Origin: Paraspadella gotoi | Lineage: Eukaryota > Animalia > Chaetognatha | Reading direction: 5' to 3' | NCBI GenBank assembly: GCA_051294375.1 | Contig: CM119263.1 | Span: 16,284,532-16,348,531, forward strand | Length of the DNA stretch: 64,000 nucleotides | Part shown: piece by piece, positions 5,851 to 49,158 of the stretch | Layout: each line of letters starts with the position of its first letter | Numbering within the stretch: the stretch's first letter is position 1 | Notes under the pieces: model-generated | The model's input: the letters and a program-made list of their open reading frames with translations, nothing else | Databases searched by the model: none | What the model was told of the DNA's origin: nothing | Translations under genes and position numbers: made by a program

Positions 5851-6526
5851 TATATTGATTGGTTTTGATTTGACCTGACAATGAGCGGAGCAAAGTTGCC
5901 TTCAAAATCGTGTTTCATTTTTTTTCTTCAATCTGTTTGTCTAACTTTTTAAACAGGTATAAATATTAATATCTTCTGAAAGCTCTTAAAAATATAAAGA
6001 GAATGGCATAATTAAAAATACTGTAATATAAAAATTAACCTATCCAGCTTTAAATAAGAAAAGGTAATCAAAACTAAGATAATTATTAATTTAAAAATTC
6101 TTAAAGAGCAATTTTGGAATAATTATTAAATTATTGATAGCCATTTTAATTTAGTTTTTCTTAAGCTTTTTTCTGATACCTATAAAAACAATAATTCATG
6201 AATACATTATAATGAAAATAGCTCAGATATTTGAAAAAATATATTTTAGGATTTTATTATTTCAATTTAGATTATCTTGATTAAACTGAAGCTGGTTAGG
6301 CTTATTTTCATGTTACAATATTCTTAAATATGTCATTTTCTTCAAATTTTCAAGAGCTTTCAGAAGATATTAATCTTGATATCTTTTTATGTAAAAGTTA
6401 TTAAAAAAATTTTCATAAAGTTAGACAAAAAGATTGAAAAAAAACGACTTGTTTTAAAATGAAAGACGATTTTTAAAGCAACTTTTTCCCGATCATTGCC
6501 AAGTCAAATCATAACCAATCAATAAA
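5851..6526. mobile_element. Degenerate foldback/MITE-like element upstream of the lipase gene
   Basis: Long imperfect inverted arms: ATTGATTGGTTTTGATTTGAC...ATTAATATCTTCTGAAAGCTCTT (~5853-5987) versus AAGAGCTTTCAGAAGATATTAAT...GTCAAATCATAACCAATCAAT (~6352-6523). Confidence 0.65.
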
Positions 6527-6579
6527 TGTACTTGTATTACAAATGAATGTCTATTTTAATAGATAAGGGTTAAACGTCG

Positions 6580-7782
6580 ATGCAGACCGATAACGTGGCA
6601 ATGTTTTCAAAAAAGAGCGCGCTTCTTTTCGCTGCATTGGCCATGGTTGCTTTCCTGCTGTACGAGCCAATGCCCCAAGACGTCGCCGATCCTTTAACTA
6701 TTTGGCTTACGGCCAAAATCCGCGACCTCGTTCGAACCTTTAACCGTATAAGAGGTCGGGCCGAGTTTGAAATGGATTTGCTCGAAGCGTTGCACTCCCC
6801 GGTGGGCGACGACCCTGATATCAAAGTTTACGACCACCTCGATGGTCCCGTCAAACTTCGCGTCTATGAGCCTCGACGACGAACCTCTGGCGTACCTGGT
6901 CCCGCCGTGATCTTCGTTCACGGGGGCGGTTTCGTGCTCGGTAGCACTCTCTCTTATGATCTAACCGTCCTAAATCTTGCCAAACGCCTCCAAATGATTG
7001 TATTTTCGGTGGAATATCGTAAAGCGCCTCGATTCGTGTTTCCAGCTCAGATTGAAGACGTTGAAGCAGCCACTCACTATGTCATTGACAACGCCTCCTT
7101 CTTTAGAATCGACTCGAAGCGAGTGGGCCTCATGGGCGACAGTGCTGGCGGTGCCCTGACCGCCACCGTGGCCATAAAAATGCGACCGACCGATCCGGCG
7201 CGTCGTCATCCTTTGGCGCTGATTGTGCTGATTTACCCGGGCGTGCAGTGTTTCAATTTTCAGAGTCCCGCATACTACGCACCCTCGACTCAATCTTTTC
7301 TTCGTGCCCTGGATGTCGGCAAGTTTCTCTCTCTTTATTTGACGGGGAGCGACAGGCATGCATCGACGATAATCGGAAATATGCATACCTCGCCCGAGAC
7401 GAAGCGCGGACCCGGGCGTATCGCCTTCAAGACTTCCTCAATCCCCGAAAATCTTAGGCCAAAGACATTCTCGCCACCCTCGATGGACGTGGGATCCGAC
7501 GTGGAAGAGTTGCGCGCCGTGACCGATTGGAGAGTGTCGCCTCTGATCGCCGACTTATCTCATCTTCCCAAAACTATGGTCGTCGCCGCCCAGCATGATA
7601 TTCTGCGGGATGACTCCTTTCTATTTCACGATCGTCTGAAAGAAAGCGGCGTAGAGTCTACGTTAAAATTCTATCCACGGGCCTATCACGGAATTATTTG
7701 GTTGTCGAACATGATTCCGAGGAGCGATTTGGCCCACCAGATATTGGATGATGTTAGCAATTATATTATCGAAAGACTGTAA
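6580..7782 (+). CDS. Arylacetamide deacetylase / neutral cholesterol ester hydrolase-like GDXG (HSL-family) alpha/beta hydrolase, single exon
   Basis: 400-aa uninterrupted ORF. Likely start is ATG 6601, giving a signal anchor MFSKKSALLFAALAMVAFLLYEPMP like animal AADAC. Has the HGGG oxyanion motif, nucleophile GDSAG, LIYP..Q, HDILRDD (Asp) and YHG (His). Confidence 0.92.
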   Translation: MQTDNVAMFSKKSALLFAALAMVAFLLYEPMPQDVADPLTIWLTAKIRDLVRTFNRIRGRAEFEMDLLEALHSPVGDDPDIKVYDHLDGPVKLRVYEPRRRTSGVPGPAVIFVHGGGFVLGSTLSYDLTVLNLAKRLQMIVFSVEYRKAPRFVFPAQIEDVEAATHYVIDNASFFRIDSKRVGLMGDSAGGALTATVAIKMRPTDPARRHPLALIVLIYPGVQCFNFQSPAYYAPSTQSFLRALDVGKFLSLYLTGSDRHASTIIGNMHTSPETKRGPGRIAFKTSSIPENLRPKTFSPPSMDVGSDVEELRAVTDWRVSPLIADLSHLPKTMVVAAQHDILRDDSFLFHDRLKESGVESTLKFYPRAYHGIIWLSNMIPRSDLAHQILDDVSNYIIERL

Positions 7783-8121
7783 CTTGGATTTAACAAAATT
7801 AAAAAAAAAAAAAAAAAAAAATTATCTAAATTAACTTGGATGCTAATTTACAACCTAAATTTGGGCGACATTAAATAATTTAATTGGTTCGTATTTATAT
7901 CACGTCTTAATTCTTTTGAGATTTTAATTACCATGACTTGATTTTTGATCATTTACACAATGAAATTAAAAGCTAGTGTTGTTATCTTTATAATTTTTGG
8001 TTATCGATTATTTTTTTTATTTAGATTTTTGAATTCTTATAAAGACAATTTGCATGGAAGATTTGATAATGAACTTATATATTTTTCCCCGATTTTTATC
8101 TTGAATTGCTTTATGTGATAG

Positions 8122-8355
8122 GTGTTGCGCTATATTCACACCGCCTCACATCACCATCGTTCAGCCAATCCCATTGGCTCAGAGGGGGAACAAACCATCC
8201 AAAGCGTAACGTTCCATCCACAGTCCTAACGACTTCCCTCTGCGTTGGCAAAGCGAGACCGTCCTAGGGTAACCGCGCTTGTGGCAGGCGGCGCCATTAA
8301 GGGTCGGAAGACACTAAAGCCAATGGGCATCGCAGGCAACTCGGCTGTTGCCAAA
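8122..8355. repeat. Family R2 repeat, copy 2, ~190 nt upstream of the Schlafen-like ATG
   Basis: Diverged homolog of 3673-3915 in the same orientation. Confidence 0.7.
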
Positions 8356-8541
8356 TAGGCTTCTTTCTTTCATATGACTAAATGAGTTTATAAGGTTTTT
8401 TGAAGAAATGATGAAATTTTTTAAAGTATGCTTTTTAGGCCGATAATTTTGACCTTCTCGATGCTAGCAACTTCTGATCTTTTTTAACCTGCTTATCTAA
8501 AAAAATTTTGAATGACGCGTTAATTACCGTTTCTATCAATA

Positions 8542-11500
8542 ATGGTGCCTGAGCAAAACTATTATCCTCGCCTGGAGTCCGGCTACGACACTGGCAAGGA
8601 GGAAGAGTACGAATATTTTCGCCCAAGGTCCGTTAAAATTATTCGCAAAGGCTCCCAGTTTGCATCTGTTGAAAGGCAACATCCGGAGCAAGTGAGCCCT
8701 CTGCCGAGAGATGATCAGGAACCAGAAAGTCATGCTCGATTGCAATCTGGACATGGGTTTTACGCTAAAACCGCACCAAAGACAGTCGCGCCACTTTGCA
8801 TGGATGAAACTGAAACTAATAGATTATTATTAAAAGCTGAGCTCGTGGAAGAAAGCGCTTCTCAGCCTCCACCGATCGAAAAAAACAAAGGGGAAGAAAA
8901 GCTCAAACGGGCCAGCGGGAGACGTCCGTGGATTCTCGACTCGGTTGTCGAGGCCCCAGAGTCTCTAAACGAATTCTGTCCATCGCTGACATTAGACCAG
9001 ATTGACGCTAAGATTGAATTTAGCGTCGCGCCTATCATCGCCGGATTTCTTAACGCTCGCCTTGATGGCTCCGTGATTTTCGGGTGCTACGGGGTCTTTC
9101 AACGTCTCGTGAAAGGAATCGCCTATGACTGCCTCGCTCAAGAGCAGGATTTTAAGGCGAGTCTTCGTTACTATTTCCTTGATTCGAGGATTTTAGGAGG
9201 CTTCCAGAATTGAACCAATTTTATTTTAATCCTTGTAAACAACAACGTTCACAAACTTGATGAACCTAGAGATGGTAAATTTTCTACGTTCTGAAAAAGG
9301 TGAAGGCTTTGGCGCGTCTTCGTCGAGCTTTTGGTGAGGCCCAATCTTCATTTGAGGACTTTGTCTCCGTCGAATTCTGTCCCGTGTTTCCGCCTCCAAG
9401 CTCCGGTACACATTCCTTTCAAGCCGAAGACGAATCGGTGAAGAATCTCGCGGTTGTCGAGTTTCGGGTCAACGGTGGCGCGAACTCGAACGTCTTCAGA
9501 TTGAAAACGTGGAAAAGGCATGGAAGGTTAGCAATTGCGATTGATAGGTTTTCAATCTGTTGAATTGATTACTTGAATTTTGGATTCCCCAGTAAATTTT
9601 AATTGTATTCTGCTTCGGTGTTAGAACTATCAACGGCTTCCCGTGGCGTCGTGTTACGCCAGAAAACTCAGCTTTCACTCATTGGTTTGAAACGGAGGAG
9701 GATATTCTAAGGTCGAGAGAGTGTGGCCGACGCAACCAGAAAGAGGTATCACATTCGATTGATCTTCTTTTTGTTCAGAAGGTTAGCAACTGATCACTGC
9801 TTTTTGATCAATATCTTCCCTAAAGATGCGCGCTTTGGAAAAACGAATCCATCAGGTCTGCGTCCCTGACGCGCCGCCAGCCGTGTCAGCCCCCGGACCC
9901 ACCGAAACGTCACCAATTTCGCAGACACGACGCCCTATTCCGATGCAGTTCTTCGTCCACGGGGATCCCTCTCCGTTTTTTAACAATCAAACTACCATAG
10001 TTCATCGAGAAGTAGGTGTCGCAATCAGCTTTGAATTTTTAGTCAGTTTTTTTCCGTGACACTTTGGCTTGCGTTGGTCTGTCATGGTGGGAAAAAAAAA
10101 TTGTCGCGTTTTGGTTAATTTCATTGTCAAATATATTTTTTGGCCGGTAAATAAGTTTTAATATGACTTTCCTAGGACTGAATATAAAAATTATTTCTTA
10201 ACAGCATAAAATGATTTAATACATCCAAATACTTCCAAAAGAGGTTGTTTCCAACTGTTTTCATATTTTTTTAATCAAAAGGATTATATTATTGTTAATA
10301 TTATATCTCTGACATGATATTTTTTATCAGATTTAGAGCAAAAAATTGTTTTTGGCAAGCAGTGAAAAAGATTGATCCCCTATAAAGAAAACTAAGCTTT
10401 TTTTACTTCAACAAAATCTTTGATTTTTTTTTATTTGGACTTGTTTGATACTTGGTTCTGATAATGCATCCAGAGGTAAATAAAAATGATAACTTTGCTC
10501 TCAGAATATTCTGGAGCATTTATGACACAATGAAAAATGGCGTAACGTTACTGTTCCGTGCATAAAAAAAATTCACTGTTCAATATTATTATATTTCTTT
10601 TTATTTTTTGAAACGTTATAGTTTCATATGTTGATATCCAAAATATCAATGCAAAATCTTTTTTTGTTTTTTAGATATGACTGAATATAGGGTGAAAGAT
10701 GATAAATTTTTTTAAAAAGTTACTTATTCATATTTATTCATAGAATTGTAATATTGTAATTGTACCAGTTTCATAAAAAATAATAGTACTAATAGTTAGT
10801 GTTTGTTCAATAGATGGAAAAAAACCTCATTTAAAAATTCGATCGGGAAGTGGGGTAACTAAGGCTTACCAATGGCATCCTCCACGCCGATTGTTCTCTC
10901 AAATAATTTTTTTTATTTAATACATTTGAAAGGAAAAAAAAGAAAATTTGGAATGCAGGTTGCAGAAAGGGTACAGATAATCTGGACTTATTGACATGAT
11001 AACCATAACCTTTTATATCTTGTGAAATGGGGGCAATAAAAAAATCTAAAAAATTTTATCATTAAGTCAGTCAATGAAACCTTTCCAATGGGCTATTACG
11101 AGAAATATTTTTTCTTAATTAAAATGGATAATAAATAATAGAATTAAATTCCTTGCTATATTTAAAAAAAATTATCAATACAATTTAACACAATGATGTT
11201 TGCTTTGTCAAATATGTTACCAGCTATAAAATTTTTTACAACTTTATTATGATAAACAAGCAGTGTGTCAAGCTTTTAGTTTGCAGCTAAAGATAATGAA
11301 AAATGACGATTTTTTTTTTCACAGACAAGAAGGTAAGATGTCCATATCTTTTATATCAAGCTGAAAAAATTTTATATTATCATTTTTAATATTTAAAATA
11401 CATTTTATCAAGCTACAATAGAAATTTTTGCTTGTTTTTTACTTTAACTGAAAAATATAAGCAATTTTATGGAATAAAGAAAATTTAATAATAAACAAAA

Positions 11501-14500
11501 TGTAATTCAGTCTTTCCTTTTTCAAATTAAAAAGAAAAAGAAAAAAATTTCATATGCCTTCATTCAAATTTTTAAAGCAAAAAACTGTTATACTTTTAAC
11601 TCTGATTTAAACAAAAGCTGTGTAAAGATTTATGGATTTAATTTAATAAAATCTTTTAGAAAGGTGTCCCATGATTAGGGCTTTAATTTGTTACCACATC
11701 CACCTTGCTACCTCTTTTCTTTCAAAAGTTATTTAAAAAAAAACTTTTTTTAAATTACGCAGTACAAATCTTTAAAATAAAAATTTCGGCAAAGCGGGAG
11801 TATCTCACTTATTTCTATGGTACAATACTTAAATTTCAAATAAAACTTGAAGAAAATTTTTTTGTCATTTAGAAACATCACTTTCAGATGTACCCATCGT
11901 ATAATAATTTATTTATTTATTTCCCCAAAAAAGCCTAATTAGAAAATTTGAAATTTTTTTAAATTGTTGGAAAAAAAATTTTGTCCGACCTATGCTCATT
12001 GAGAATAATGGTTTTGCATAGAAAATCAAAATATCAAAAAAATAAAAAAATCAGCCTCTAGAAAAATCGAAAGGCTAGAGGCTGATTTTTTTAGAATTGC
12101 AAAATTTTTTTCCTGACTCATAATCCATTATTGTCAAGTTTTCAAATATTTTTCAAAATCATTCAATCAATTTTTTTTTATTAATTTAAAATGTTTTTAT
12201 GATGTTGTTTTTGTTTGAAAGAATTGAAAAAAAATGAAAAATATAGTAATTATATAAGGTTTTTGAAAATACCTTTAAAATATAATAATTAGACACAAGG
12301 GGAGTAAGCAGAGAAAACTTTCATTCATAAAGAAAATTGAAAATGAATTTGTCATATTGTTATTTAGATTAATGACTAATTACAAACAAATGATTCATAT
12401 AAATTGAGGAAATGATGTGTAAAAAATATTCATCTTGGTCTCGGTTATCTATTAGGTTATTGTTAAAGTTTTGTTTTAATAATATTAATATTTTTTTTGC
12501 ATTTATAAAAGCAATGGTCTAAAATTTTGTAAGCGTTTCGAGCTATATTGCTTCATCTTTTTTACTATTTTTGATCTAGTTAGCTTTTTTGTTGATGGTC
12601 AAGGGTTATGGTCAGATACAGTAATGTCCAGTAGTGTATATCGCACATATTACCAAAAGTAATGATCAATTAATTTGGCTCAGAAACAATTTTAAAGGGA
12701 CAAAATCAGCACGAAACCGTTTCGCCACGTTATTTTTCATTGTCTTATACTATCAATGTATTTTTAATATCGTTCTTTTTTTGATTTATGAATTAAGAAT
12801 TATCCTTGAATCTATCCTAATGAAAATGATGTAATAACCATTTGACATGAGACAGAAAAAAGGCAGGGATTTTGAATAGTAACGGTTTAATTTAAAAAGT
12901 AATAAAAAAGAACCGGATATTAATATAAATAAAAAATGTAAATATGGTGGACTAAAATCCACCAACCGTTCATCAACGGCCATTGGTGCCGGAGGCAAGT
13001 CATTCGCCTCCCAACTCAAAGGTCCGGGGTTCTAGCCCGGTGGTTGCCTAACAGTTAAGAGGGACGGGGCGCTAAACCCGCCTGTAACATGGTGTTACAG
13101 CCTGGTCCGAAGCTCAGGGACTGCTTATATAGAACGGTTCAGTCACTAACACATAACAATAATTACTGTCTCTTCACCATCTATATTTCAAATAAGTTTA
13201 ATGAATTATACTTAATTGCGCTTGCAAACTCGTTTTTAAAATGATAAAATAAAAATAATAAAAATAATATTATGAATTAATTTAATTACTTATTGGAGAA
13301 AGCAGTACAGTCCAAAAAAATATCTTTCTTAAATATTTCTATACATGAATAGTATCAAAAAATTTTAGTGATGCATCCTCGCTATTGTCAAAAAGGTCAA
13401 CAATTGACACAATTTGTCAATTCGTCAATTGATTGTGAAAATTCCCGAGCTTATTAATTTGTGGTTTTAAAATTATTTTTTTTATATTTGGGTATTAATT
13501 TTTAAAAAATGAAGTCCTGTCCAAAAAATGTGACAGCCAAGTATAATTATAATTCTAAATCATAATGAATTTGGATTAAGTATGCTATGCGTATTTAAGA
13601 CTGACCGACCAATTTATTGGTAAAAAATTAAGTTAGAGTTGGAAAAAAAAATCTATGTTCTCCTCCTTAAAAACAATTCTTAAATGTAGAATTTTGAAAA
13701 TTTCAGGTTTTAGCTAGTTTATACTATATATTATTATTATTATACTATTTACTTTAAGCCTGCCCTATCTTTTGCTATTTTTTGCATCAGCAATTTCTGC
13801 CTAATTTTAATAATATATATTATCTTAATCATTTTATGTCAAAACTTATCTGCTTGTAAAAAAGCTTATTTTTGACGACCAGACTCCCTCACTTTAAACT
13901 CGTGGAGGGTTTTATTCCGGTCAATTTTTTTTTTTTTTTTTTAGTGTTTTAACATGTTGTAGGGACAAAGTGAAACCAAAGGGAAAAAAGTCGTTTGGCG
14001 ATTATAAGGGTAATTTGCGAGTTTGATTATGTTTAATGAACAAGGTAGTAGATAATTTTAAAAATAATGTTTACTTCATTATAAAAGCTCTGGATTCTGG
14101 AGCTAAAAATATGAGGTAGTTTTTTACTGTCCTGCATCTAAAGAAAAGATTTAAACCATTATTTAATCAATATTATAAAAATATTTGATAAATATTAAAA
14201 AATATATAATTTAACATTTAAAAAAAAATCACTGAAAAAAAATTTTTAACAATTAGTTTATGTAATAACTACAGGAGTTTGCTTTGTTCAGTTTTTAAAA
14301 TTTAGGTATCCTATAAAATGGTCCATGAATTAAAGTTTTTCGATCTGGTATAGGAGCAGATATCTTATATATACTATCTTAAAAGATAGTACCATAGAGC
14401 TTTACTATTTAATTTATGTTATTTAATTACATAATTATATATATTGCTTTGTCATTATCTAATAATTCATTTCTCATTCATTTTTATCTTTTTTTTTTTT

Positions 14501-17470
14501 TGCAGAAGGAAAAGGAGGAACTACAAATACAGTGAAAGCGATGAAAATAGATGAAGTTTTTTTAAGAAATATAAATGGCGAATAAAATGAGATTTTTTTT
14601 TTAAAAACTTGTACTCAAGAGGGTTTGTAAACTTCTGTAGAAGTTTTGTTACTATCAAAATATGTTTTGCCATATTTATCGGTGCTAATATTTCATTTAA
14701 TTACAAGTGCTTCTCGCCATTTTAGAAAATTTTGGTCCATTGAAAGTTTTCTCAGAAATGTATAAAGTTTCATTTGGGAAGGTTCCCAAATAAAATTTCT
14801 GACCCTCCCCATTGACAAAGTTTGGCTCTATTTTTGAAATTTTAATGATTTATCTATAAAAATTAATAAAAACTCTAAAATTTAATGAATGATAATGATG
14901 ATGATGATTTTTTAAGGTTTTTTTAAATTTTCGCCTCTTTATCATTAAAATTTTTGAAATTTGTAGTACTAACCTTTATCTAACTTTTTATCTTTATAAG
15001 AATCCATTTTTAAATATTTAAATTTCTTAAAAAAAATTTTAAGCATTTCTTATATGCGTTTTATTTCGAATTCAACAAGGTTGATTCGGTACATACAGGA
15101 GCATCAAAACAAAGCTAAGTCTAAAGACAAAATAAAGTTAAAGATTGCGTGAAAACTACCACTATAGATAAAAAAGGTTCAAATTATTGATTAAAATATT
15201 TCAATCATTAAAGAATGCGATTATTCTTTTGAGAACTAAATTTGGTAAATAATTTAAAAATAATTCAAAATAAGGTAATTTTGCGACCGGTGTTTGAACA
15301 GAGGGAGCAAAACAATAGGCATTGGAATTTATAAAGAATTCGTTTGGCGATTTTATTTCTTATATTATAATTAATAATTAATCCAGTTTATCCACTAAGT
15401 CTGACTCGAGAGCATTTAAAAAGTTGAGAGAAAATACGACTTGGCTTTTGTTTGTTTCTGTCGAAATCATTTCGGGCTCGGCTTTCCGTTCAGTGGTTTC
15501 ACTCATTTACTTTTTTTTATTGGGTTGATAACAAAGACATAAGACCATCTTTTATTCAAAACTTAAATACAAGTTTTCTAAAAATTGTAAAACTAAGGCA
15601 ATACTACGTTAATAGCATAGCAATGTTGATCTCCTTAATAAATGCGGTACCTGAAAACTGGCTTTTTATAAATCCGAATTAGTAGGTATTAAGGCGGGCC
15701 AGAATTTAACATTTTTTACAATATGAAAAAGTCTTTTATCCTTTTATAACCAAATTGACTTATAATGTTAGATTTTGATGAAATTAATTTTCCTCATGCA
15801 TGGAAGCATTTTAATATTTAATAATATAAATAAGAAATGCTTAAAATTTTTTTTCGGAAATTTAAATTTTTAAAAATGCTTTCGGATAAAGATTTAAAAT
15901 ATAAAGGTTAGTACTACAAATTTTAAAAAAATTAATGATAAAGGGGCTAAAATTAGAAAAACTTTAAAAAATCATAGTTTTCATTTATTAAATTTTATAT
16001 TTTTTATTAATTTTCATTGATAAATCATTAAAATTTCAAAAAGTTGACTTCACATTGTTGGTCCGCCCCCCCCAATCTTGTCGGGAATTCACTTTTATCA
16101 TGTCATAACATCGAATAATGATAAATTATGCAAACAAAATGATGTCCGTCCATCCCACCTTCGCAAAAAACACCAATTACACGTGATTTGATGGATGGAT
16201 TGGAATGAAATTTTGTGTGTGGGTAGGGAAGTGTGTGATTGAGCTGGAAATCGAGTTTCGCTGGAATCGTCCGAGTGGAAAAGGGTTAAAATGGAAAAAA
16301 CAAAAAAATATATTTCACTATTTGGATCGCCAATTACTCATGAGTGAATGGGACGATTGACTTCAAATTTTTGTATGTGGGGTAGGAAAGCTTGAATTTA
16401 CATTTAATATAAAAATAAAAGAAGCATAATCAAATAGTGAAATATTTTTTTTTTTCATATTAACTCATTTCCACTTGGACGATTCCATCGAAACTTTATT
16501 TCCTGCTCAATCATACACTTTCCTACACACATATAAAATTTGAAGTCAATCGCCCCATTCACTCAATTGGAATATTGGCGTTCAAATAGTGAAATTTTTT
16601 TTTTTCCATTCGTCTGGACTTTACACTAATACATTTACGAACTACTTTTCAGCTATTCCTCGACAAAGTGATGGAGGACGACCTGGCTCCCAGTATCGTG
16701 GCTCTCTTTAACTCTAACGTCAGCGGAACCATAATTTTCGGCATTTTTAAGCCACCGTCGAGCCTCAACCACCACCAGGGCGCTCGCATCGAAGGTGTCA
16801 AAATTTCGCGTGACGAACGCGACTCTTTTCGACTCTCCATCGATCAAATGGTGCTCCGTCTCAAACCGATGCCCAATCCGCGCCTTTTTCAAGTGTATTT
16901 CCATCCAATTGTGAAGAGAACCGAGCCTGGTTTGATAATTGAGAGAAGTTGGCCTGGCAAGCAAACGAGTAATCGAGCAAACTATCTTTTCTCGTAATTC
17001 TCTCCCGTTTAGGCCGTCCACACATGGTTCTACCCGACACATTCATCGTCCGTTTGGAAATTCAACCCCATGACTCTGAGAATTTCTTCGAAACGGTCTC
17101 CACGCGCAGGACCGAAATCTCTTACCCCGTGCCGGTTGCCTTCACAGACGCGCGCGAAGTCGAGAGGCGACGCAGAATTTATATTCGAGTCGGCGACAAA
17201 ACGCTCAACGTTACCGTCGACGAGGTGTTGAACAAAGCAGTAGAGTAAGTTAAAGATTAGGTCAAGCTTAAATCTAAATTGCATTTTCGGTGACTGATGA
17301 ATCTATTATAAGTTATGATGGAAGGTTTGAAACAAAGTTAAACTTTTTACAGACAGAGAAATGACGAGTGGAGGAGTTTATTGTCTCGACCGGAGTGGAA
17401 GAGACGGTTGCTGCTTTATGACATTGGAAAAACAACCACGGCCGATATTTTGAAGAGATTTTTGGACTAG
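8542..17470 (+). CDS. Tandem double Schlafen/AlbA_2 (SLFNL1-like) domain protein, 7 exons, ~591 aa
   Basis: Phase-consistent exons 8542-9156 (GC donor), 9300-9526, 9625-9745, 9826-10011, 16653-16929, 17013-17244, 17353-17470 (TAG) sum to 1776 nt. Domain 1: WILDSVVEAPESLNEF...IIAGFLNARLDGSVIFG...VKGI...VSVEFCPV...LAVVEFRV. Domain 2: FFVHGD...IVALFNSNVSGTIIFGI...IEGVKISRDERDSFRLSIDQMVLRLKP...FQVYFHPI...FIVRLEI...IYIRVG. Both follow the AFLNxxGGxhhhG / V.GI / D..RL.hD / FhPV / hhR.G pattern of the Schlafen AlbA_2 fold. Confidence 0.8.
12942..13176 (+). mobile_element. tRNA-related SINE-like repeat (family R3) in the long intron of the Schlafen-like gene
   Basis: tRNA-like head ~12976-13048 with A-box-like TGGTGCCGGAGG and B-box-like GGTTCTAGCC. 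A second copy lies on the minus strand at ~25452-25685 (and in the duplicate at ~41542-41775). Confidence 0.6.
14830..16043. mobile_element. AT-rich foldback/MITE-like element with ~200-nt degenerate inverted arms
   Basis: TTTTGAAATTTTAATGATTTATC (~14832) versus GATAAATCATTAAAATTTCAAAA (~16019-16041); TTTGTAGTACTAACCTTTAT (~14960-14979) versus ATAAAGGTTAGTACTACAAA (15901-15920). Confidence 0.65.
16140..16620. repeat. Dispersed repeat family R4 (GAAAGTGTGTGATTGAGCTGGA...GATGGAATCG units, often tandem)
   Basis: Units here in both orientations; further copies at ~18890-19390, ~19960-20170 and ~50280-50790 (mirrored at 37420-37920). Confidence 0.65.
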
Positions 17471-18346
17471 CTCATGGTCTGACTGAGAAAAAAATTTGCA
17501 ATATTTTCTTTTTCATAATTTTTGTATTCATTATTTTAATGAATGTATCGTGCATCAGCACAAAACAATTCGAGTAGAATTGACGTTCTTATTATACAAA
17601 GTTGTTTTCCAAATGCTTTTTTCCTATTCGACTGTTATTTACGAAAGAGCACAAAAATTTGTAAAATCTGACTAGTTTCATTTAGCAGAGGCGGTAATTT
17701 ACAATTTAAAAGAAAAAAATATCGTTAGTCGGTATTTTCTTTGGCCTATGCAATACAAAAATAAAATGTTATATCAATTCAATAATATTTTCCAAAAAGA
17801 ATACCGAGCAGGATACAAGTAAATTAACACCGTTTGAATTATCACTGTCATTGATAACGCGACACTGTGATTCGATTTTGACTCACTCTCGCGAGGCACA
17901 ATCGTCTTCATACTCCATAGCTTTTGAGAACGCCAATGGAGAGGAAAGGGTAAATTATAAATTGATATTTTGATGAAATTAGGAGGCACTACAGAACCTG
18001 ATAATCGTGGCAAATAAAGTTTTTTGTAGATACGATTTTTACCTTTTCCTGCCATGAACGAGTACATAATAAATGCGAATTAACAAGGCATAGAGGGGTG
18101 ATTCTGGGGTCTTTTTTTAAGAAATTTCCAAAGTTACCTGCGGCACGGGTCGTTTCAGAGAGATTAAACAGAGACGTTTAGCGAAGTGTGGTTAAACGTA
18201 AAGAAATAAAAATTCTGCTGGAACCCCTTATGGATATGACCGGTAAACCACTTTTTGCTATTCTGTGCTTTCCGCGCTAAATTTTTTTAGTTCGCTGTCG
18301 TTAATTTGGCACTTCATCGTTACGAGGGACCGGAAACTATGGCGAG

Positions 18347-21300
18347 TCATTCGTCAACGCCGTGCTGCTCCGGTTTTAAATCAACCATTGCGTGAAGTTC
18401 CTCGGGGGTGTAACCCAATAAACTTTGAAGATCACAGACGAATCGGTAAACGTACCTGTTATTAATTGTTTAGATATTTTTGTAACACGTGCGAACATGT
18501 TAAAGGCTCAAACTTTACCTTTTTCCGGCTGTTTTATGAATTATATTTTTGTCATAGTAGTATCGAAGTCCTCTAGAGAGTTTTTCATAGTTCATTTTTG
18601 GTTTGTTCTTCCTGATACCCCAGCGACGAGCAACCTAAAAAGTTTTAAAATTTAATTTTGTTTTTAACTTTGCTTCTATTCACAAAAGTTCTTAAATTTT
18701 TATCAGGATTGATTTCAAATAACCTCATCGGGATCAGTAAGTTTAAACTCCCATCCGTCTCCCGTCCAGCTGATAAATGCTTGACAACTTTTATCTGTGA
18801 GAAGTTCTAGTAAAAATTGCCACAATTGTATGGGGCCAGAACCTTATAAAAAAGTAAATTGATTAAAAATTGATATAAAAAAGTAAATCGAATTATGATA
18901 AATTATGAAAAAAAAACTGTCTGTTCATCTGTCTGTAGGTCCATCCATCCGTCCCCCCTTAGCAAAAAAATCCAATTACTAGTGATTGGAATACGAAAGT
19001 GTGTGATTGAGCTGGAGTCGTGTAAGTGGAAATGAGTTTAAATGGAAAAAATATAAGTCACATTTACTTGAATCTTTTTACTAATTTTTAACAATATTAC
19101 ACTAATTAATAATAATGCGATAGATAGATTGAGATGAAATTTTTGTGTGTTAGGATAGTGTGTGACGAGGCTGGAATTGGTCGAGTGGAAATTAGTTTAA
19201 ATGAAAAAATCATAATTCATATTTACTTAAATCTTTTTACTAATCTTAACTCATAATTACTCAAATAATTCATAAGTGATTAAGTGTATTCATAAGTGTG
19301 TTATTGAGCAGAATATAAAGTTTCGATGGAATCGAGGAGAGAAAATGGTTTTGCATGAAAAAAAATCTAAGTTGACTTGAATTTTTATTATTTATGCTTT
19401 TATAAACTAAAAAAAATGGTGCGAAATTTTTGTTTTTAACAATTGCATAGACGTTTACTCTTCCACAAAAATGTATTTATTACTACAAAAAATTACCTTA
19501 ATTTTTAGCATCATGAACACAAGCGGTTGAAGTCAGATTTGGAATAATTGTGGAAAATTGGAAGTAAAACGATGAACCATGCATCTTCAAACTATGCTTA
19601 ATTAACGGAAATATATCGTTTTTAGTTCTATAATGTAAAACGCCAATGTACTTGATGCTACTCAAAAATTTTAAAAATAAAAATATTTTTAGCTTTTTTT
19701 GGACCACCAGGGGTCCACCCCCAGGGCCCTGTATCTCTTGTTAGGGGTTGAATATCAAAATTTGCCTCTATAGTGCCATTTATATTGTCATTAGAACTCT
19801 AAATGTAAAATTTCATGAAATTCGATCGGGTAGTTTGGTTGGGACAGATTCTGGTCACAAAAAAGGGGTACCTCATTTTATAATATGAAGCTTTCTGCAA
19901 TTGTTTTAAATTTCTTTTATATAATGCTTTTTTGATGCAGCAAAAGTTTTTTTCGCGCGGTTTGTGTGATTGAGCTGGATATGAAGTTTCGATGGAATCG
20001 TGCAAGCCAAAATTAGTTTAAATGGAAAAAACCAAAAAAATTATTTCACTATTTGATTGACTTGAAATTTTGAATCTGGGTAAGAAAGTGTGATTAAGAT
20101 GGAAATGAAGTTTTGATGGAATCGTCTGAATGGAAATAAGTTTAATAGGAAAAAACAAAAAACCTGTTTTACTAATTGATTATGCATCTTTTTCTTTTTA
20201 TATTAAATTTGCAAGATGTATTAATTAATCAAATAATTAATCAGTTAATTAATTGATTAGTCAATTAATTAATTAGTCAACATAAATAAATTGATTGAAT
20301 AATTAATTAATAATTAACTAATTATTCAATCGATCAATTTTTTTAACAATTAATAAATTATTTAAACTATCAATCAATCAATTAAGTCAATCGTTTTCAG
20401 CATTATTGCCGTCGTCGTCATTGCTTTTGTTAGAGATGCGCATCTTTGAATCGAAGCTCCGATCAAGTTTCCTTTATATTTCACTTCTATTCAAACTGCA
20501 TAGTCAAGGCCAAAACAAATTATGTCAATATGGGCAGATTTTGAAAGCTTGGCGTCTTGGGAAGCCAATGGAGGTAGAGCGCGATCAAAATTCTCATTTT
20601 ATCATGCCCAAAAATGGTATTTAAATGGATTGGTCAGGCCGTTTTTTCCCTATTCCAAGAAAACCTCCTGGCTCTTGAGTAAAAAAGACCAAATCATACA
20701 TATCAGTACAGTTTCCGAAACCTTATTGTTTTCTCTACATGATGAAAAAAAGGAAAATTAAAATTCTTGCAATCTCAATTGCTTGATAAAGCAATCAAAT
20801 GAACTGGTTTTTTAGGTGAAAACTGCATAGTCAAGCCTTCATTTTTTTTCAATTTTGAACACAATTGACAGAAACTGTATTGATTTTACTATTCAAATCA
20901 AGTAGAGCGCGGGCTTAATTCAAAAGCGTTTTCTCAATATAATGCAAAATTTAAAAAAAGTCCAATAAAAACTTATTAAAAACAAAAATTGTCGCACAGT
21001 GTTGCTTGTGAGTCCCAAATGCTAAAAAAATAATTTTTTTTAATTTTTTATATTATTATATAATATATAAAAATATTTATATAAATATAATTATAGTATT
21101 GAGAATGAATTTTTTTATTCAATCTGAGAAGGTAGTACTATATATTAAAAAGTATATATGTTTAAAAATTATATTTTACAATAAAATTAGTTAATTTTTC
21201 TAAACTGCGACAATTTTTTTTATCATGGTATAATTAAAAAATATAAAATAAAATTTTAATTTTTATAATATATAATAATTATATTAATATAATAAATCCA

Positions 21301-24300: not shown

Positions 24301-27300
24301 TGACAAGAGATACAGAGCCTTGGGGGTGAACCCCTGGGGGGCCAAAAAGAACCAATTTTTTTTAAAAAATTTTTTAGTAACATCAAGTGCATTGATGTTT
24401 TAAACATATAAAACAATTTTAAAAAATAAAATTGATAAATTTTCAATAATTAAGCATAGTTTGAAGAGACATTGTTCATCATTTTCTTTCTTATTTTTTA
24501 AAATTATTCCAAATCTGTTCATGAAGCTGAAAATTAACAAATATTTTTGTGGTAATAAATACGTTTTTGTGGAAGAGTATAAACATCCATGCAACTGTTC
24601 AAAACAAAAACAATAAAAAAATTTAAAAACAATTTTTGACAATTTTTTGCCCCTATGGGTGACCTCTCCGGGGCCCCATATCTCCACTCAGGGGTCAAAT
24701 ATTGAAATTCGCCTCGATATTGTATTTGCATAATGATCGTTCATTCCAAATTTCAATAAATTTGGTCCTGTAGTTTTTTCGGAACATGTTCTGGTCACAA
24801 CAAACGGGTACCTCATTTTATAATATGAAGCCTTCTGAAGTAAGCTTTAAGTATATCATTATTTTTCTTTTTTAATTTTGAGAAAATATATGTGAAAAGT
24901 ATAGCTCTTATAAAGAAAGAATAGAAAAGAAAGAAAGAATAGAAAGGAAAGAATAGAAAGGAGAGAGAGAGAGAAGCCAAATCGTTTTCGAACGAATCAG
25001 CAGCGGCAGCAACAGAGGCGCACCCAGAAAAAAAGAAATCAAAAGGCAGCAGCAGCAGGAGAAAAGAGAGAAAAAGAATAAGCCCCTGCAGAGCCAGCTG
25101 CAGATTCGTTTTTTTCCCCTATGAATCAGTGACAAGGGAAAAGAGAGAGGGAGAGAGACATGTAATTAAAAGAGAAAAGAGAGAGAGAAAGAAATATAAA
25201 AATAAAAGAGAAAATTTGTTTCTTTTGATAAAACGTAAACAAAACATATTTAATAACTGTCCAGACTCAATTTTAAGCACATCGATGATGAGAAGCTGTA
25301 TATGAATTTTCAGCTTCATACACCCAAATTTAATCATAAAAAAGGCGATCTATAATTTGGAACGACGACGACAACGCCACTTATGCGCAAAAGCGTTACA
25401 ATATCGTCGCAAACGCTAAGCGATTGCGACAAAAAATTAATTTGTTCTTATTGAAGAGATAGTAATTATTGTTGTGTTAGTGACTGAACCGTTCAATATA
25501 AGCAGTCCCTGAGCTTCGGATCAGGCTGTAACACCGTATTACAGGCGGGTTAAGCGCCCCGTCCCTCTTAACTGCGAGGCGACCCCCGGGCTAGAAACCC
25601 GGACCTTTGGGTTAGGAGGTAAATGACTTGCCTCCTGCACCAATAGCCGCTAATAAACGGTTTGTGGATTTTAGTCTACCATATTATCATATTTTCTGTA
25701 CTAATCAACTTTGACGTCCTATAACTTTCGAACGCTTTGCTTGATTTTAATAGGATTTGAACCAATCGCTTCATCTTTCAATAAGCTTTGTTTTATGCTT
25801 CTATATCTTTGAGAAAAACAATATTGGATGGCTGAATTTTACAGAGTGATAAAAGTGGCTACTTTTTTTGCGCCGCAGTGTAATAGGTACATATGGAATA
25901 TAGTAGTAGTATGTAGAGTATGTAGCATATTTCAATTGTTCATTTTAATAAGAGTGTTAACCTGGATATTCTTGTTTGATCACAACTTGTTGCATGTCAT
26001 CATGAGAGTTTAGTTGATAAGGAAGCTGTCTTTTAGAGGAACTTTGTTCTTCATTTAAATCCGTTTCTATAGAAAATTTTTTATTTAAAGAATTTCAAGT
26101 TAACAGATGAAGACTTCATTGTTAGGATATATTTACTACGCTATAAACCACTAACATACCAGGATTGCCTCGATGTAATTGTGGCGGTAGCGGTGATTCC
26201 ATCGCATGGGTTGATTCATTCTTTATTGCATTATTGGTTGTGCTATACAGTGATGATGGATTGGTTGTTGAATCTTGCATACAGGATAATTGAATTTTTA
26301 ACATTAATTTAATGTCACGAGTAATAATAATCTAAAAATATTTTAAAACATAACTTACCTTGCATCATAAATTCTGAGGAACAAACGGTTTCATAGATAC
26401 TAGAGGGCAAATTGATCAGTGATGTTCGTTCTTGGTCCGCATCTGAAAGATAACATTTTGTATTACAAAAAAAATTATTTTCTCCTCTGTTCGTTTTAGA
26501 GGCTCTCAGTTGAAGATACTACAGGGACTTTAATTTGGACTGATTCAAAAAACTTGTAATATTCGGGTTATACAATTTTTTCATACCAAATAAAAAAATA
26601 TTGATTTTTTTCCCGCCAATTCATAATATTATAGTAAGGATAGTTGCTGTTATAAACATTTTCTTCCGAGGGTAAATTTCTGAAGAAACATTTTTTACTT
26701 TAAAATTTTTACTTTGAAAGTGGATCTTACAGTTACCATTAAAAAAATAAACATTTTTTCATGCTTCATTTTTATAATTAATAAGACACTGTACTGTAGT
26801 CAATGTATCATGAACTAGAATAAAAAAAATTATAATATGAATAATACTTAATAATAATCATCACGTTTTCTTTTTAAAATCTATTAAAAATAAAAATTTC
26901 AGCTGGGGGGGGAATTACGGAAAATGACTGTTAATAAATAATAGTTACCATAGTAAATAAGTTAGGTTTTATATAAGATTTTTTTTTCATAATAACAAAT
27001 TATCAAACTGACTTTTTATCACAAATTTTTTTTATTTTATGCAGATTAACTTCACAATCAGCGTTAATACTTATTAAATTGTTAAAAACTGTTAAAATTT
27101 GGATGAAAAAAATGAAAAGCGACTCCGCGCTTGAGAGATACTTATTATACTTTTAAGAAATTTGAACATTTTTTTAGTTCAAGTAGTTTTCTAATTAATA
27201 AATATTATAAAATAATATACAGTGAAAGAATTACGAGTTTAATCATATCTTTTTGTATCGGTCCAGATTGAAGTCCGTGTCGATAGTAAGGTTTAACTTT

Positions 27301-30300
27301 TTAAAACTTTCGTCGCTTTTTTGCTTAGCAGTACGGTACTATAATAGAGCCCGGATTGCGTCTGTATGGATCTTCGTACATTAAAAACTAACCGTTTTTG
27401 ATAAATAAAAATCGTTTAAGTATTATAACTATGGTTAAAGCCAAAGCCGAAAATGTGGATCTTCGTCACTAATCTTTTTCCGTCTGGGTTTTAGTTACTG
27501 CGACGCCGAGAGAGACACGCGTCTCTTATGAAGAGAGTTAATCATGAATCTTGTCAGATCCAGAAGCTGACGATAATTAGAAAACCATAGTTTTAGAGCA
27601 AGTTAAACACAAAAAATGAAGCGAACCGTAAATTGCGCTCAATAATTACATTCTTTTTCTTGATTTAAGTTTTTTATTTTAGTAAAGAGATGTGGGGGGA
27701 GGAGAATTTTTGTCAGCTAAATTTCAAATTTCTGTTTACTTAGTACAAAATTACCAGATTTAACTTTAAGATCTGAAATTTGAAGAGTTGAAAATTATAA
27801 CACCTCAACTTCCTTCCGGACCAGATTTTCGGTGGTCAGGCTTTCTCCTATCTCGTGCAGGACCCTTTTTTATATTCCTCCAGTTTATCATAGGAACCTT
27901 GAAAGAGAAAAATCCACCGACGACATAACATGGCAATAGTCAATCAGAATCCCGACCTCGCAGCCATTTTTTGACCCTTGGGATCTCGAAGCAAAGTAGG
28001 CTGGGCGCGCAACAGCTTTCGACTGGCCTTCAACCTTCAACCTCTTTCAAGGTTCATGGATTACTTTCTTTTTCTTTCTTTCGGTTTGGGCAAATCGAGT
28101 AATTGCGAACACGAGGCCACATGAAATTTATACCATACCTTTTTGCAACATGTCCAGATGCTCCCACAAAATATCGCCCATGAAGGGTGGAACGCGAGAG
28201 AGAAAGTCCTCTTTGGATAAATCGCAGAGAATCTTTCCTTTCATGGTTACTTTGGATAATTCAACTCCTTCGAGACTGAATTCTTTGATTGCCCAACACA
28301 ACCATTTGACGACTTGAATTTCGGCCCATTCTCGTGGATCTAAAAAGATTTTTAAACGGCGGTCATGAGACATATAGATTAGACTTTTTATCAGATTACA
28401 AATTTTTCAGTTTTAAATGGAAGCCACAATCATATTTTTCTCCTTTCCTTTACTAACCTTTCGGGATGCCGTGTATTAACTGTTCTTTTTCAAAGCTAGA
28501 GAATGAAGCCCTCAAAGCGGCCGTCATTTTTTGATTGGTACCCGGAGTTAGTGGAGGTATCGAGCTCGAAGTTGAAGGCACGTGGGGCTCTATTAAAGTC
28601 GTATTCATTAATATTTCACCTTTTGGTGTTTATTAAATTATTTATATAGGTATGTTATGCAAGGTTTACTAATTCTGCAACATGCTAATAATTAACCTAT
28701 AACCTATTTCCATACTTAGATGATATTAGATTGACTGGAATATTTTTTGATGGAACCTTAACCATTTTAGGTCATAATCTAATTTATTATAGATAGAGGC
28801 CATATGTTTTTTTTCTTTCATTGCCACGCAAATTGATATTGTTTAACTGTTCTATTCTGTAACAGAATTCGTTAAAAAAGTTTCTTTGTACTTTGAAAAT
28901 GGCCCTAGAATCGGGCGCTCTCGCTTTCTCTTTCGCTTCTTTTCCCCTGCTGTTTCCTCGCTATATCTAATTCACACTCTTGTGCTACAAAATCCAATCG
29001 AAAACTTCCATACGCGACGAAGTTTTGGCGAAGCGAAAACATTCATTTGAATTTCAAATGATGATCGTGACTGGGATAAAACGATATATTGGCTAGGAAT
29101 TTAGAAGTACCTTCTGAATTTGTTTCGAGATCATTTTTTTCAACTGCAGGACAGCCATAATTTAAATTCTCTTTATTTCTATTCTTTCTATTCTCCAATT
29201 TTATAATTCTTAACATTACTGATTAAGAGGCTAGGTTCCCCGATAATTAATATAAACTGGACAAAAGGGTGGAGCAATAAAAAAATGGAGACCTGTTATT
29301 TATTGCGTCTGTATATGAAAATGATAAAAGTTCAACCTTTTACAAGTTTTTTGCGGGCAGCAACAGAAATTGTGTTTTCTTTATAGTAATATCCTTAATA
29401 CATAAAATTTAAAAATAATAAAAAATAATTTTGAAGGCCAGGGATCAGTCAATTTAAACATTATATATATAACATTATTTAAACTTTATATACTATATTA
29501 AATACCCCTTTGCCTCTCTCTCGAAAGTATTTCAGAAAAAATGAATGGTTTTTTTTGCCCAAAATTTTGAATATAAATATTTTTTACTTTTTTTCTCGGT
29601 AAACCGAGAATTTCGAGTAAAAACGGATTCTTAGGGGTATGCTCAATTTTTTTCTTTTGGTAAACCAAGATTTTTAAGTAAAGACTGATTCTATAGCTAA
29701 AGTCAAAAGTTAGATACCTCATAGGGGAGCTAATTTTAAGTTATATTTTGTGTATAGACTTTCGATTTCGTTGTGTTTCGAATTTAGAGAGGAAAACAGT
29801 TTTTGTTTCAACGAGTCTTTAGGACATTTTTCGGACATGTTTCGACTCTACAGTTAGTCTTCATGAGCATTGTGACTATCAATAATTTTTCTCTTTTAAC
29901 ATTAAGTTAAAGAAAAGGAGAGAGAGAGAGAGAGAGAATTAAGAAAGGGATAGTGGTCAGATGTGAGGACAGGTGAAGGCAAGGACAGGGAAGAAGAAAG
30001 TCAGTTGAAATTTGAAATTGAGGGAATTAGAGAGAGAGAGAGAGAAAGAGAGAGAAAATCTTTACATTTGGTAATGTACAACAATGAAAAATGAAGATAA
30101 TTTAGCAAACTTAAAATTGAAGGTTAAACTAATAGTAACAGAATAAATAATAATACACGGTAGGGCAGAGAGGATGTTAAAGAAACAAAAAAAGTGCCAT
30201 CTCTGAAACCTATAAAATCTTAAAGTATACCCATGAGACACTTAATGTGGTAGGTCAGTAAAATTCGATAAAGGCAGGTTTTTTTTTAAATGCTCATTAA

Positions 30301-48200: not shown

Positions 48201-49158
48201 GTAGAAGCGAGATCCGTTGGGATTTTGCTCGTTAACTGTCAGGTCGCCGACCCCAAGGTTTGACATCATCGACGTCGAAGACGTCGTAGTCAAGACTGGC
48301 GTCGTTTTCTCCTAAAGAAATTTCACAAAATCTGTATAATGGAGACAATTTCATGCCGAAGATAATCTAAAGCCTCATTGATTACCTATTACTTTAACCA
48401 CGAAATATTAGTTTAGTCATAAATGTTCTGTAGTAGATTAGTAGTAGATAAGTTTGCTCAATAAATTTATCCGTCATACATCAGTGCCAACGTTCGAGTC
48501 ATGTTTACAGAACCGTGGGAATATTTTGACGAAGAACCGGTTTAAACAGAATTCATTTTAAAAAGCTGTTATTATTCGTACCGCTTGATATTTTATAATG
48601 CGATTAGATTACAAACTTACAGGAATTCAAATGAATATTCGGTGTACTTGTGTAGTTATATTATTGTCTGTCGTTCGGTATCAAAATCTCCCACTTAAAA
48701 TGCGTTTAATTTTATCTCTGTTTCATCTTTTCTTTATCTTTGTTAGGTGAAATCAGCTAAATTTAACTTTTTAGTCGGATCTGCTTATGACACGATGAAA
48801 GTTAACGTGGCGAAACTTTCCCATACAACATATTTTTTATCGTCGCAATCGCTTTGCATTTGCACGATTTTGCTGTGGTTTTGTACATAAGTGTCGTCGT
48901 TCTCGTCGGCGTTCCAAATTATAAATCGCCTTTTTCATGATTAATTTTGGCTGTTTGAAGCTAAAAATTTATATACAACTTCTTATCATCAAGGTTATTG
49001 AAATTGGGTGAGGACAGTTATTAAATGTTTTGTTTACGTTTTATCAAAAACAAACAAATTTCGTCTTTTATTTTTATGTCTCCTTTTCTCTTTCTTTCTC
49101 TTTTAATTAGATATAGCTTTCTCTCTCTCTTTTCCCCAGGCTGATTCATCAAAAAAAA
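39232..49158 (+). repeat. Direct near-identical copy of ~23213-33074 (ETS 5' exons with frameshifts), probable assembly artefact
   Basis: Collinear match including all repeats and ETS exons. Many 1-nt indels at the left end fade to near identity by ~45000. The PNT exon copy (~44240-44440) is frameshifted. Confidence 0.9.

What the first reader, a model, noticed from the sequence alone, without database searches (positions are those of the whole stretch)
8542..17470. Invertebrate gene with two fused Schlafen/AlbA_2 domains: a possible single-chain PUCH-like RNA-processing factor
Seen: four exons at 8.5-10 kb and three at 16.6-17.5 kb splice in phase across a 6.6-kb intron into one ~591-aa ORF that the ORF track shows only as fragments. 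It has a low-complexity N-terminus, then two complete SLFNL1-type domains, each ending in a helical tail (GRRNQKEMRALEKRI; AVEQRNDEWRSLL), joined by a Pro/Ser/Thr linker. No helicase, RRM or transmembrane segment is evident. Known: vertebrate SLFN11/13/14 have a bilobed core that cuts tRNA/rRNA, and the C. elegans piRNA-precursor nuclease PUCH is assembled from separate single-Schlafen-domain proteins (TOFU-1, TOFU-2, SLFL-3/4). Inference: this tandem arrangement could form an intramolecular Schlafen heterodimer acting in small-RNA biogenesis or antiviral/anti-transposon defence in a lineage where none is described.
Basis: partly seen in the sequence, partly recalled or inferred. Interest (0 to 1): 0.8.

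Follow-up and report, generated by a model that had tools for sequence, protein, structure and literature searches.

The report
Twin dead-looking Schlafen domains, one chain
This spliced animal gene encodes one protein with two Schlafen-type domains in a row, neither of which has the usual RNA-cutting motif, so it is likely not a self-sufficient enzyme but a scaffold predicted to pair with a separate active Schlafen, as the non-cutting subunits of the worm piRNA nuclease PUCH do.

Summary
The gene is real. One spliced contig of a public run carries all six introns, including 10011→16653, and the seven exons give a stop-free 591-aa frame. Domain 2 is clearly Schlafen/AlbA_2. Domain 1 is a strongly diverged second copy: its core beats all 5000 shuffles, its C-half is only weakly supported. 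Neither domain has the catalytic Ex4(E/D)xK motif or the Asp of the SLFN13 triad; domain 1 keeps two Glu one residue short of canonical spacing. Among the sequences I retrieved, the best-scoring relatives are the motif-less C-terminal Schlafen domains of an uncharacterised Armadillo–Tudor–Schlafen family (cnidarian, annelid, nemertean), which this scan had already noted on other DNA. Here ARM and Tudor are absent. A self-sufficient 'single-chain PUCH' is therefore unlikely: PUCH is a trimer needing catalytic TOFU-2, and two lobes in one chain is the ordinary vertebrate Schlafen plan. Best reading (0.4): a two-lobed pseudo-nuclease that clamps RNA and recruits a separate active Schlafen. The tandem form is seen in this genome only; no partner, germline bias or piRNA link was shown. 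New variant of a known kind; interest 0.45.

The parts
8249..8541 (+). transcribed 5' leader (contig start; true start unknown)
   Evidence: contig piece begins at 8249; in-frame stop just upstream of the ATG (frame opens at 8524)
8542..9156 (+). exon 1, aa 1-205: low-complexity N-terminus (aa 1-125) and core of Schlafen domain 1
8917..9861 (+). Schlafen domain 1 (aa ~126-333, across exons 1-4), strongly diverged; core aa 130-196 significant, C-half weak
8959..8973 (+). residual acid pair of domain 1 (E140, E144; spacing x3, then Phe-Cys where Phe-Lys is canonical)
9091..9093 (+). G184, at the position of SLFN13 Asp248 in domain 1
9157..9299 (+). intron 1, GC-AG type, 143 nt
9300..9526 (+). 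exon 2, aa 206-281
   Evidence: colinear but weak match to the family beta-hairpin (P=0.14)
9625..9745 (+). exon 3, aa 282-321
9826..10011 (+). exon 4, aa 322-383: end of domain-1 tail helix, Pro/Ser/Thr linker (9862-9936) and first strand of domain 2, whose motif position (9982-10005) holds no acid pair
10012..16652 (+). intron 4, 6641 nt, AT-rich with dispersed repeats; it interrupts domain 2 itself
16653..16929 (+). exon 5, aa 384-476: core of Schlafen domain 2; K416 (16749-16751) at the Asp248 position
17013..17244 (+). exon 6, aa 476-553
17353..17470 (+). exon 7, aa 553-591 and stop: tail helix of domain 2
17471..18457 (.). 3' untranslated region covered by the same contig; likely overlaps the 3' end of the convergent Ets-family gene

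Best explanation
The gene makes one spliced 591-aa protein with two Schlafen-fold domains that lack the canonical catalytic motif, so it is likely a pseudo-nuclease whose two lobes are predicted to pack together, hold RNA and recruit a separate, active single-lobe Schlafen protein to form a three-lobed nuclease. Shown: splicing, domain 2 identity, domain 1 core homology, loss of the motif. Inferred: descent from the ARM-Tudor-Schlafen family with loss of ARM and Tudor and gain of a second lobe; lack of catalysis; lobe-lobe packing; RNA binding; the partner; any role in small-RNA biogenesis or defence. My odds: no own catalysis about 0.8, partner model given that about 0.5.
For: All six joints in one contig. 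Ex4[ED]xK is in 8 of 9 prokaryote-type control domains, 0 of 4 animal family domains and 0 of 2 domains here; the register is anchored on SLFN13 through P0009, and E205A/E210A are inactive and D248 mutation lowers activity in SLFN13 (PMC5862951 passages). Domain 2 scores best against the animal family (55.0, 50.6, 45.5 bits for P0017, P0012, P0005) and shares Lys at the Asp position with 3 of 4 of them. The family is ARM-Tudor-Schlafen in Tubulanus and Hydractinia. A family profile hits SLFN13/11/12/14/5 and SAMD9, and the model of relative P0005 (pLDDT 81) matches SAMD9 at Z 14.6, rmsd 2.6 over 145 residues and SLFN13 at Z 12.3, rmsd 2.5 over 123. Domain 2 is conserved: three unrelated clusters hold 59-69% identical fragments, which argues for function without the motif. 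Precedent: PUCH has one catalytic and two further lobes, and TOFU-1 has a low-complexity N-terminal region plus a SLFN fold without catalytic residues (PMC10567574); the vertebrate N-lobe is also non-catalytic.
Against: No partner was identified (no genome held; no other Schlafen copy in the window). Both domains are charge-neutral (K+R 28 vs D+E 27; 27 vs 27), which gives no support for RNA binding. Domain 1 keeps two Glu near the motif position. The tandem form was seen only here: the close relatives are single-exon fragments. One bacterial domain (P0009, 36.8 bits) outscores one animal family member (P0018, 22.5) against domain 2, the relatives were found with domain 2 itself, and no SLFNL1, SAMD9, TOFU or vertebrate SLFN sequence was in the tree, so family assignment is provisional. 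The full-length protein was not folded. No transmembrane helix like that of SLFL-3/4.
Confidence: 0.4

Rival explanations
1. Stand-alone non-catalytic clamp or decoy: the two lobes would bind structured RNA or sequester an active Schlafen as an inhibitor, with no composite nuclease formed.
For: Same motif loss; strong conservation of the domain-2 core in other organisms; vertebrate cores clamp base-paired RNA between two lobes (PMC5862951).
Against: No basic charge excess. Cannot be told from the best reading by sequence.
Confidence: 0.25
2. Active single-chain RNase with reversed polarity: domain 1 would be the catalytic lobe (E140, E144) and domain 2 the dead lobe, opposite to vertebrate SLFNs.
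For: E140 and E144 align with the two motif positions with a one-residue gap. The two Glu are the pivotal residues in SLFN13. SAMD9 uses other spacing (E184, E196, E218, D241; PMC10246899), so spacing can vary.
Against: Gly at the Asp position with no acid within four residues, Cys for the motif Lys, Ala where 7 of 8 scored prokaryote-type rows have Asp in the helix. All four acids are essential in SAMD9. Domain 1 is the more diverged half, unusual for a catalytic lobe (inference).
Confidence: 0.15
3. Lineage-restricted relic: only domain 2 matters, as in a truncated ARM-Tudor-Schlafen protein, and domain 1 is a decaying duplicate or an unrelated spacer built on a Schlafen core.
For: Domain 1 has no Pfam hit, its C-half alone is not above shuffles, it has the longest branch (3.12), and no orthologue shows the tandem.
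Against: The frame is intact over four exons; the order of elements is kept over 172 columns; the real C-half beats 1225 of 1278 shuffles when the core is fixed; the C-part of domain 2 itself also scores weakly with this shallow profile (P=0.089). Domains 1 and 2 share no intron position and only 17% identity, so the pairing is not a recent duplication.
Confidence: 0.15

Closest known systems
C. elegans PUCH (TOFU-1, TOFU-2, SLFL-3/4; PMC10567574)
   Same: Separate single SLFN folds, some without catalytic residues; TOFU-1 has a low-complexity N-terminal region before its fold and binds an eTudor domain, which echoes the Tudor fused to Schlafen in the relatives found here.
   Different: PUCH is a trimer of three genes with a catalytic TOFU-2 and a TM helix on SLFL-3/4. 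Here two folds are in one chain, no canonical site, no TM, no SPRY. Orthology was not tested.
Vertebrate Schlafen core (SLFN11/12/13/14/5; PDB 5YD0)
   Same: Two SLFN folds in one chain; family profile matches both lobes.
   Different: The C-lobe has Glu-Glu-Asp and a CCCH zinc finger; domain 2 has no triad and no Cys. No SWADL or helicase region. Each domain here ends in a long helix and the pair spans about 438 aa.
Uncharacterised metazoan ARM-Tudor-Schlafen proteins (XP_074653860 Tubulanus, XP_057308842 Hydractinia, KAI0243123 Lamellibrachia)
   Same: Best-scoring relatives of domain 2; motif-less Schlafen domain with C-terminal helix; Lys/Asn at the Asp position.
   Different: They have one Schlafen domain after ARM (and Tudor in two of the three by Pfam); this protein has two domains and neither ARM nor Tudor.
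SLFNL1 and SAMD9/9L AlbA_2 domain
   Same: Single-lobe Schlafen fold; SAMD9 is the top structural match of relative P0005.
   Different: SLFNL1 has one fold with reported conserved catalytic residues; SAMD9 needs four acids and is a large STAND protein.

Membership tests
Schlafen/AlbA_2 fold (PF04326) | profile match, domain 2 | tested here: met
   Pfam E=1.7e-4 on one exon (under cut-off); 33.1 bits with prokaryote-type profile and 63.2 with mixed profile
Schlafen/AlbA_2 fold (PF04326) | profile match, domain 1 core | tested here: met
   14.9 bits vs best 5.2 of 5000 shuffles; hhalign E=3.5e-4 on exon 1 part; no Pfam hit
Schlafen/AlbA_2 fold (PF04326) | complete fold of domain 1 | tested here: inconclusive
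   C-half alone not above shuffles; 53 of 1278 with core fixed; not folded
Active Schlafen RNases | Ex4(E/D)xK motif (PMC13056530) | tested here: not met
   Only match in the protein is at aa 113 in the low-complexity N-terminus; 0 of 2 domains, 8 of 9 controls
Active Schlafen RNases | third acid (SLFN13 Asp248) | tested here: not met
   G184 and K416
Active Schlafen RNases | RNA cleavage activity | not testable with these tools
   needs assay
Vertebrate SLFN family | two SLFN folds in one chain | tested here: met
   (domain 1 weaker)
Vertebrate SLFN family | CCCH zinc finger at C-lobe | tested here: not met
   domain 2 has 0 Cys
Vertebrate SLFN family | common ancestry with the vertebrate core | not tested
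   no vertebrate sequences in the tree
PUCH | catalytic TOFU-2-like lobe | tested here: not met
PUCH | transmembrane anchor (SLFL-3/4) | tested here: not met
   top hydropathy 1.55, inside the domain core
PUCH | three-lobe complex; m7G- and U3-specific cleavage; germline piRNA role | not testable with these tools
   no genome, contigs only
SLFNL1 | single C-terminal SLFN fold with conserved catalytic residues | tested here: not met
   two folds, no motif; direct sequence comparison with SLFNL1 was not possible
ARM-Tudor-Schlafen family | motif-less Schlafen domain most similar to this family | tested here: inconclusive
   top three scores for domain 2 and tree group 99/97 on long branches without outgroup families
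ARM-Tudor-Schlafen family | ARM repeats and Tudor domain | tested here: not met
   none in the protein or elsewhere in the window by tblastn and full-length profile; contig starts at 8249

The most novel reading that the evidence does not exclude
The protein is a natural fusion of the two non-catalytic subunits of a PUCH-like three-lobed Schlafen nuclease outside nematodes. With the Tudor-fused relatives in cnidarians, annelids and nemerteans, it would mark an ancient, overlooked animal RNA-processing complex (dead lobes plus a separate active lobe, tied to Tudor-based small-RNA machinery) of which C. elegans PUCH-PETISCO is one split version.
Probability: 0.2. Interest if true: 0.8.

Novelty: new variant of a known kind. 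Interest (0 to 1): 0.45.

Why it matters
PUCH is known only from C. elegans in the papers I could search (listings), and whether multi-lobe Schlafen nucleases process small RNAs in other animals is open. A chain that fuses two motif-less lobes is a Rosetta-stone hint that such lobes pair, and it gives a two-component instead of three-component system to test. It also shows the two-lobe plan in an invertebrate, possibly reached independently of vertebrates. If domain 1 is a relic and the tandem is private to one lineage, the value is small.

Tried and rejected
Two separate genes: rejected, the joint is in a contig and the first strand of domain 2 lies before the long intron. Word-index search with exon 5, longer proteins: 0 of 20 candidates; with alignment A1: 2 of 7993 scored, both ARM-type single-Schlafen proteins, only 413-2000 aa searched; with the P0012 domain: only its own isoform among 272. 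These blanks are weak evidence; no tandem relative and no relative of domain 1 was retrieved. Metagenome scan: 2 of 96 stretches, 35% identity, not orthologues; viral scan: none. Single-sequence fold of exon 5: pLDDT 47, not used. PDB sequence searches with single exons or P0005: nothing meaningful. NCBIfam: no relevant hit. Two-copy complex prediction of relative P0005 as a stand-in: no answer, score 0.20 against a mark of 0.32, alignment not used; no evidence either way. An N-terminal motif resembling the linker of P0005/P0018: E about 1, rejected. Atlas gave no answer for the window's exon or for P0018. No holder on record as RNA was listed. The second read-laying run gave no result, so the last 1483 nt of the contig are unplaced. 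Rfam 6000-21000: no hit. Tree (14 rows, L001 left out): long branches and no vertebrate, SLFNL1, SAMD9 or TOFU rows, so not used for ancestry. PMC7685563 not held.

Full report
Gene structure. The run search listed one holder, X1, guessed to be RNA. Laid on 6300-18500, one 4539-nt contig covers 8249 to 18457 in pieces with zero mismatches in the listed pieces and shows six joints: 9153->9297, 9524->9623, 9743->9824, 10011->16653, 16928->17012 and 17244->17353. With cuts placed at splice signals the exons are 8542-9156, 9300-9526, 9625-9745, 9826-10011, 16653-16929, 17013-17244 and 17353-17470; intron 1 is GC-AG, the rest GT-AG; the frame is 591 aa with one terminal stop. This is one study and may be the sample behind the window, so it shows splicing, not tissue or level. 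Neighbours are a HECT ligase, an alpha/beta hydrolase, an Ets/pointed-domain gene on the minus strand and a MAP1B-like gene: an animal locus. I did not determine the lineage; no genome is held.

Domain 2. Exon 5 hits Pfam SLFN_AlbA_2 at E=1.7e-4, below the cut-off. The search of 1.84 billion representatives gave 9 hits at E<=0.001: three unnamed fragments at 59-69% identity over about 45 residues, a nemertean ARM-Tudor-Schlafen protein, and more distant domains. A profile search added an annelid and a hydrozoan member. A 10-row alignment hits SLFN13, 11, 12, 14, 5 and SAMD9 in PDB at E 9e-8 to 5e-4. The model of relative P0005 (pLDDT 81) matches SAMD9 (Z 14.6, rmsd 2.6, 145 aligned) and SLFN13 (Z 12.3, rmsd 2.5, 123 aligned) well above unrelated rows at Z<=4.8; it ends in a long helix like the tails here. 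These are results for the relative, not for the window's protein.

Domain 1. No Pfam hit at exon level. I built profiles from 4 animal and 9 prokaryote-type domains (14 locus hits reduced to 8 unique plus P0009; L001 is of unknown origin). Domain 1 scores 14.9 bits against a best of 5.2 in 5000 shuffles and aligns over 172 columns with score 31.0 against a best of 25.6 in 715 shuffles and 19.0 reversed. Against: -0.3 bits with the prokaryote-type rows alone; the C-half alone scores 11.7, within the shuffles; with the core fixed, 53 of 1278 C-half shuffles reach the real score. So the core is established and the complete fold is likely. Domains 1 and 2 are 17% identical and share no intron position: an old duplication or a fusion of paralogues.

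Catalytic site. The motif is Ex4(E/D)xK (PMC13056530, passages); in rat SLFN13 the triad is Glu205, Glu210, Asp248, only in the C-lobe (PMC5862951, passages). P0009 aligns to these positions in 5YD0 and anchors my alignment. The motif is in 8 of 9 prokaryote-type rows, 0 of 4 animal family rows and neither domain here. Domain 2 has Asn374, Ile379 and Lys416 at the three positions. Domain 1 has Glu140 and Glu144 one residue short of canonical spacing, Cys for the Lys and Gly184 for the Asp. Two control rows also lack the Asp but carry the motif, so the Asp alone is not decisive. SAMD9 needs all four of E184, E196, E218, D241 (PMC10246899, passages). I put lack of catalysis at about 0.8.

Mechanism. 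Shown: one mRNA, two Schlafen-related domains, no canonical site, no ARM/Tudor/helicase/TM. Inferred: the lobes pack on each other as in the vertebrate core, and the pair serves a separate active Schlafen, as TOFU-1 and SLFL-3/4 serve TOFU-2. In PUCH all three subunits are needed, catalytic residues were found in TOFU-2 but not TOFU-1, and TOFU-1 binds the eTudor of TOFU-6 (PMC10567574; I read parts 1-3 of 12 of the text, the Discussion and passages; figures and supplements, including the Extended Data alignment, were not seen and bear on which subunits lack acids). The Tudor fused to Schlafen in the relatives fits this analogy but is absent here. The partner idea was strengthened by an unreviewed scan note (e1-9997177), which I did not test for pairing. 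No partner, RNA binding or germline link is shown, and both domains are charge-neutral.

Comparison and novelty. Two SLFN folds in one chain is the vertebrate norm, so the layout is not categorically new. The vertebrate survey found no significant homologues outside jawed vertebrates by tblastn (10.1101/2024.01.12.575368, passages), yet invertebrate AlbA_2 proteins are common in the Atlas (query P0005) and are mentioned in mussel transcriptomes (PMC7772429, passage). I saw no paper on ARM-Tudor-Schlafen proteins or on invertebrate tandem Schlafen proteins in the listings; the library lacks most subscription journals. PMC12680541 and PMC9256597 were read as passages. The scan had noted the ARM-Tudor-Schlafen family on other DNA but no look-alike of this stretch.

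Verdict. Observation largely right, domain 1 weaker than stated. Interpretation half right: PUCH-like at most as the non-catalytic part. New variant of a known kind, seen as a tandem in one genome. Interest 0.45; 0.8 if the three-lobe complex outside nematodes (probability 0.2) is shown.

Noticed in passing
window 18350-18457 (-) and 17471-18457: The spliced contig stops matching at 18457, at a minus-strand acceptor; the minus strand below it encodes a 35-aa end that I recognise from memory as an Ets1/pointed C-terminus (no Pfam hit on this short piece, SAM_PNT at 28128-28403). The two convergent mRNAs likely overlap at their 3' ends.
   Followed up: partly
window 9157-9299: Intron 1 uses a GC donor, supported by the contig joint.
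   Followed up: yes
window 12931-13176; copies 25452-25695 and 41541-41785: About 245-bp dispersed repeat inside intron 4, very high contig depth; looks like a tRNA-derived SINE by eye, no Rfam hit.
   Followed up: partly
window 14831-15053 and 15830-16042: Inverted repeat pair of about 220 bp, 84% identical, inside intron 4.
   Followed up: no
window 6574-7782 (+): Intronless alpha/beta hydrolase gene (Abhydrolase_3 E=8e-49) followed by an A-rich run near 7800, with its own contig; possibly a retrocopy.
   Followed up: no
window 31584-32222 and 48081-48311 (-): The same Ets-gene-region reading frame appears twice, and parts of 28000-28317 recur near 44006-44359; local duplication or assembly artefact amid low-complexity repeats.
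   Followed up: no
P0012, P0017, P0018: All four animal family Schlafen domains examined lack Ex4(E/D)xK, suggesting an old, widespread pseudo-nuclease family fused to ARM and Tudor.
   Followed up: partly
L003-L006, P0009: Bacterial SMC-like ATPase fused to an intact AlbA_2 domain.
   Followed up: no
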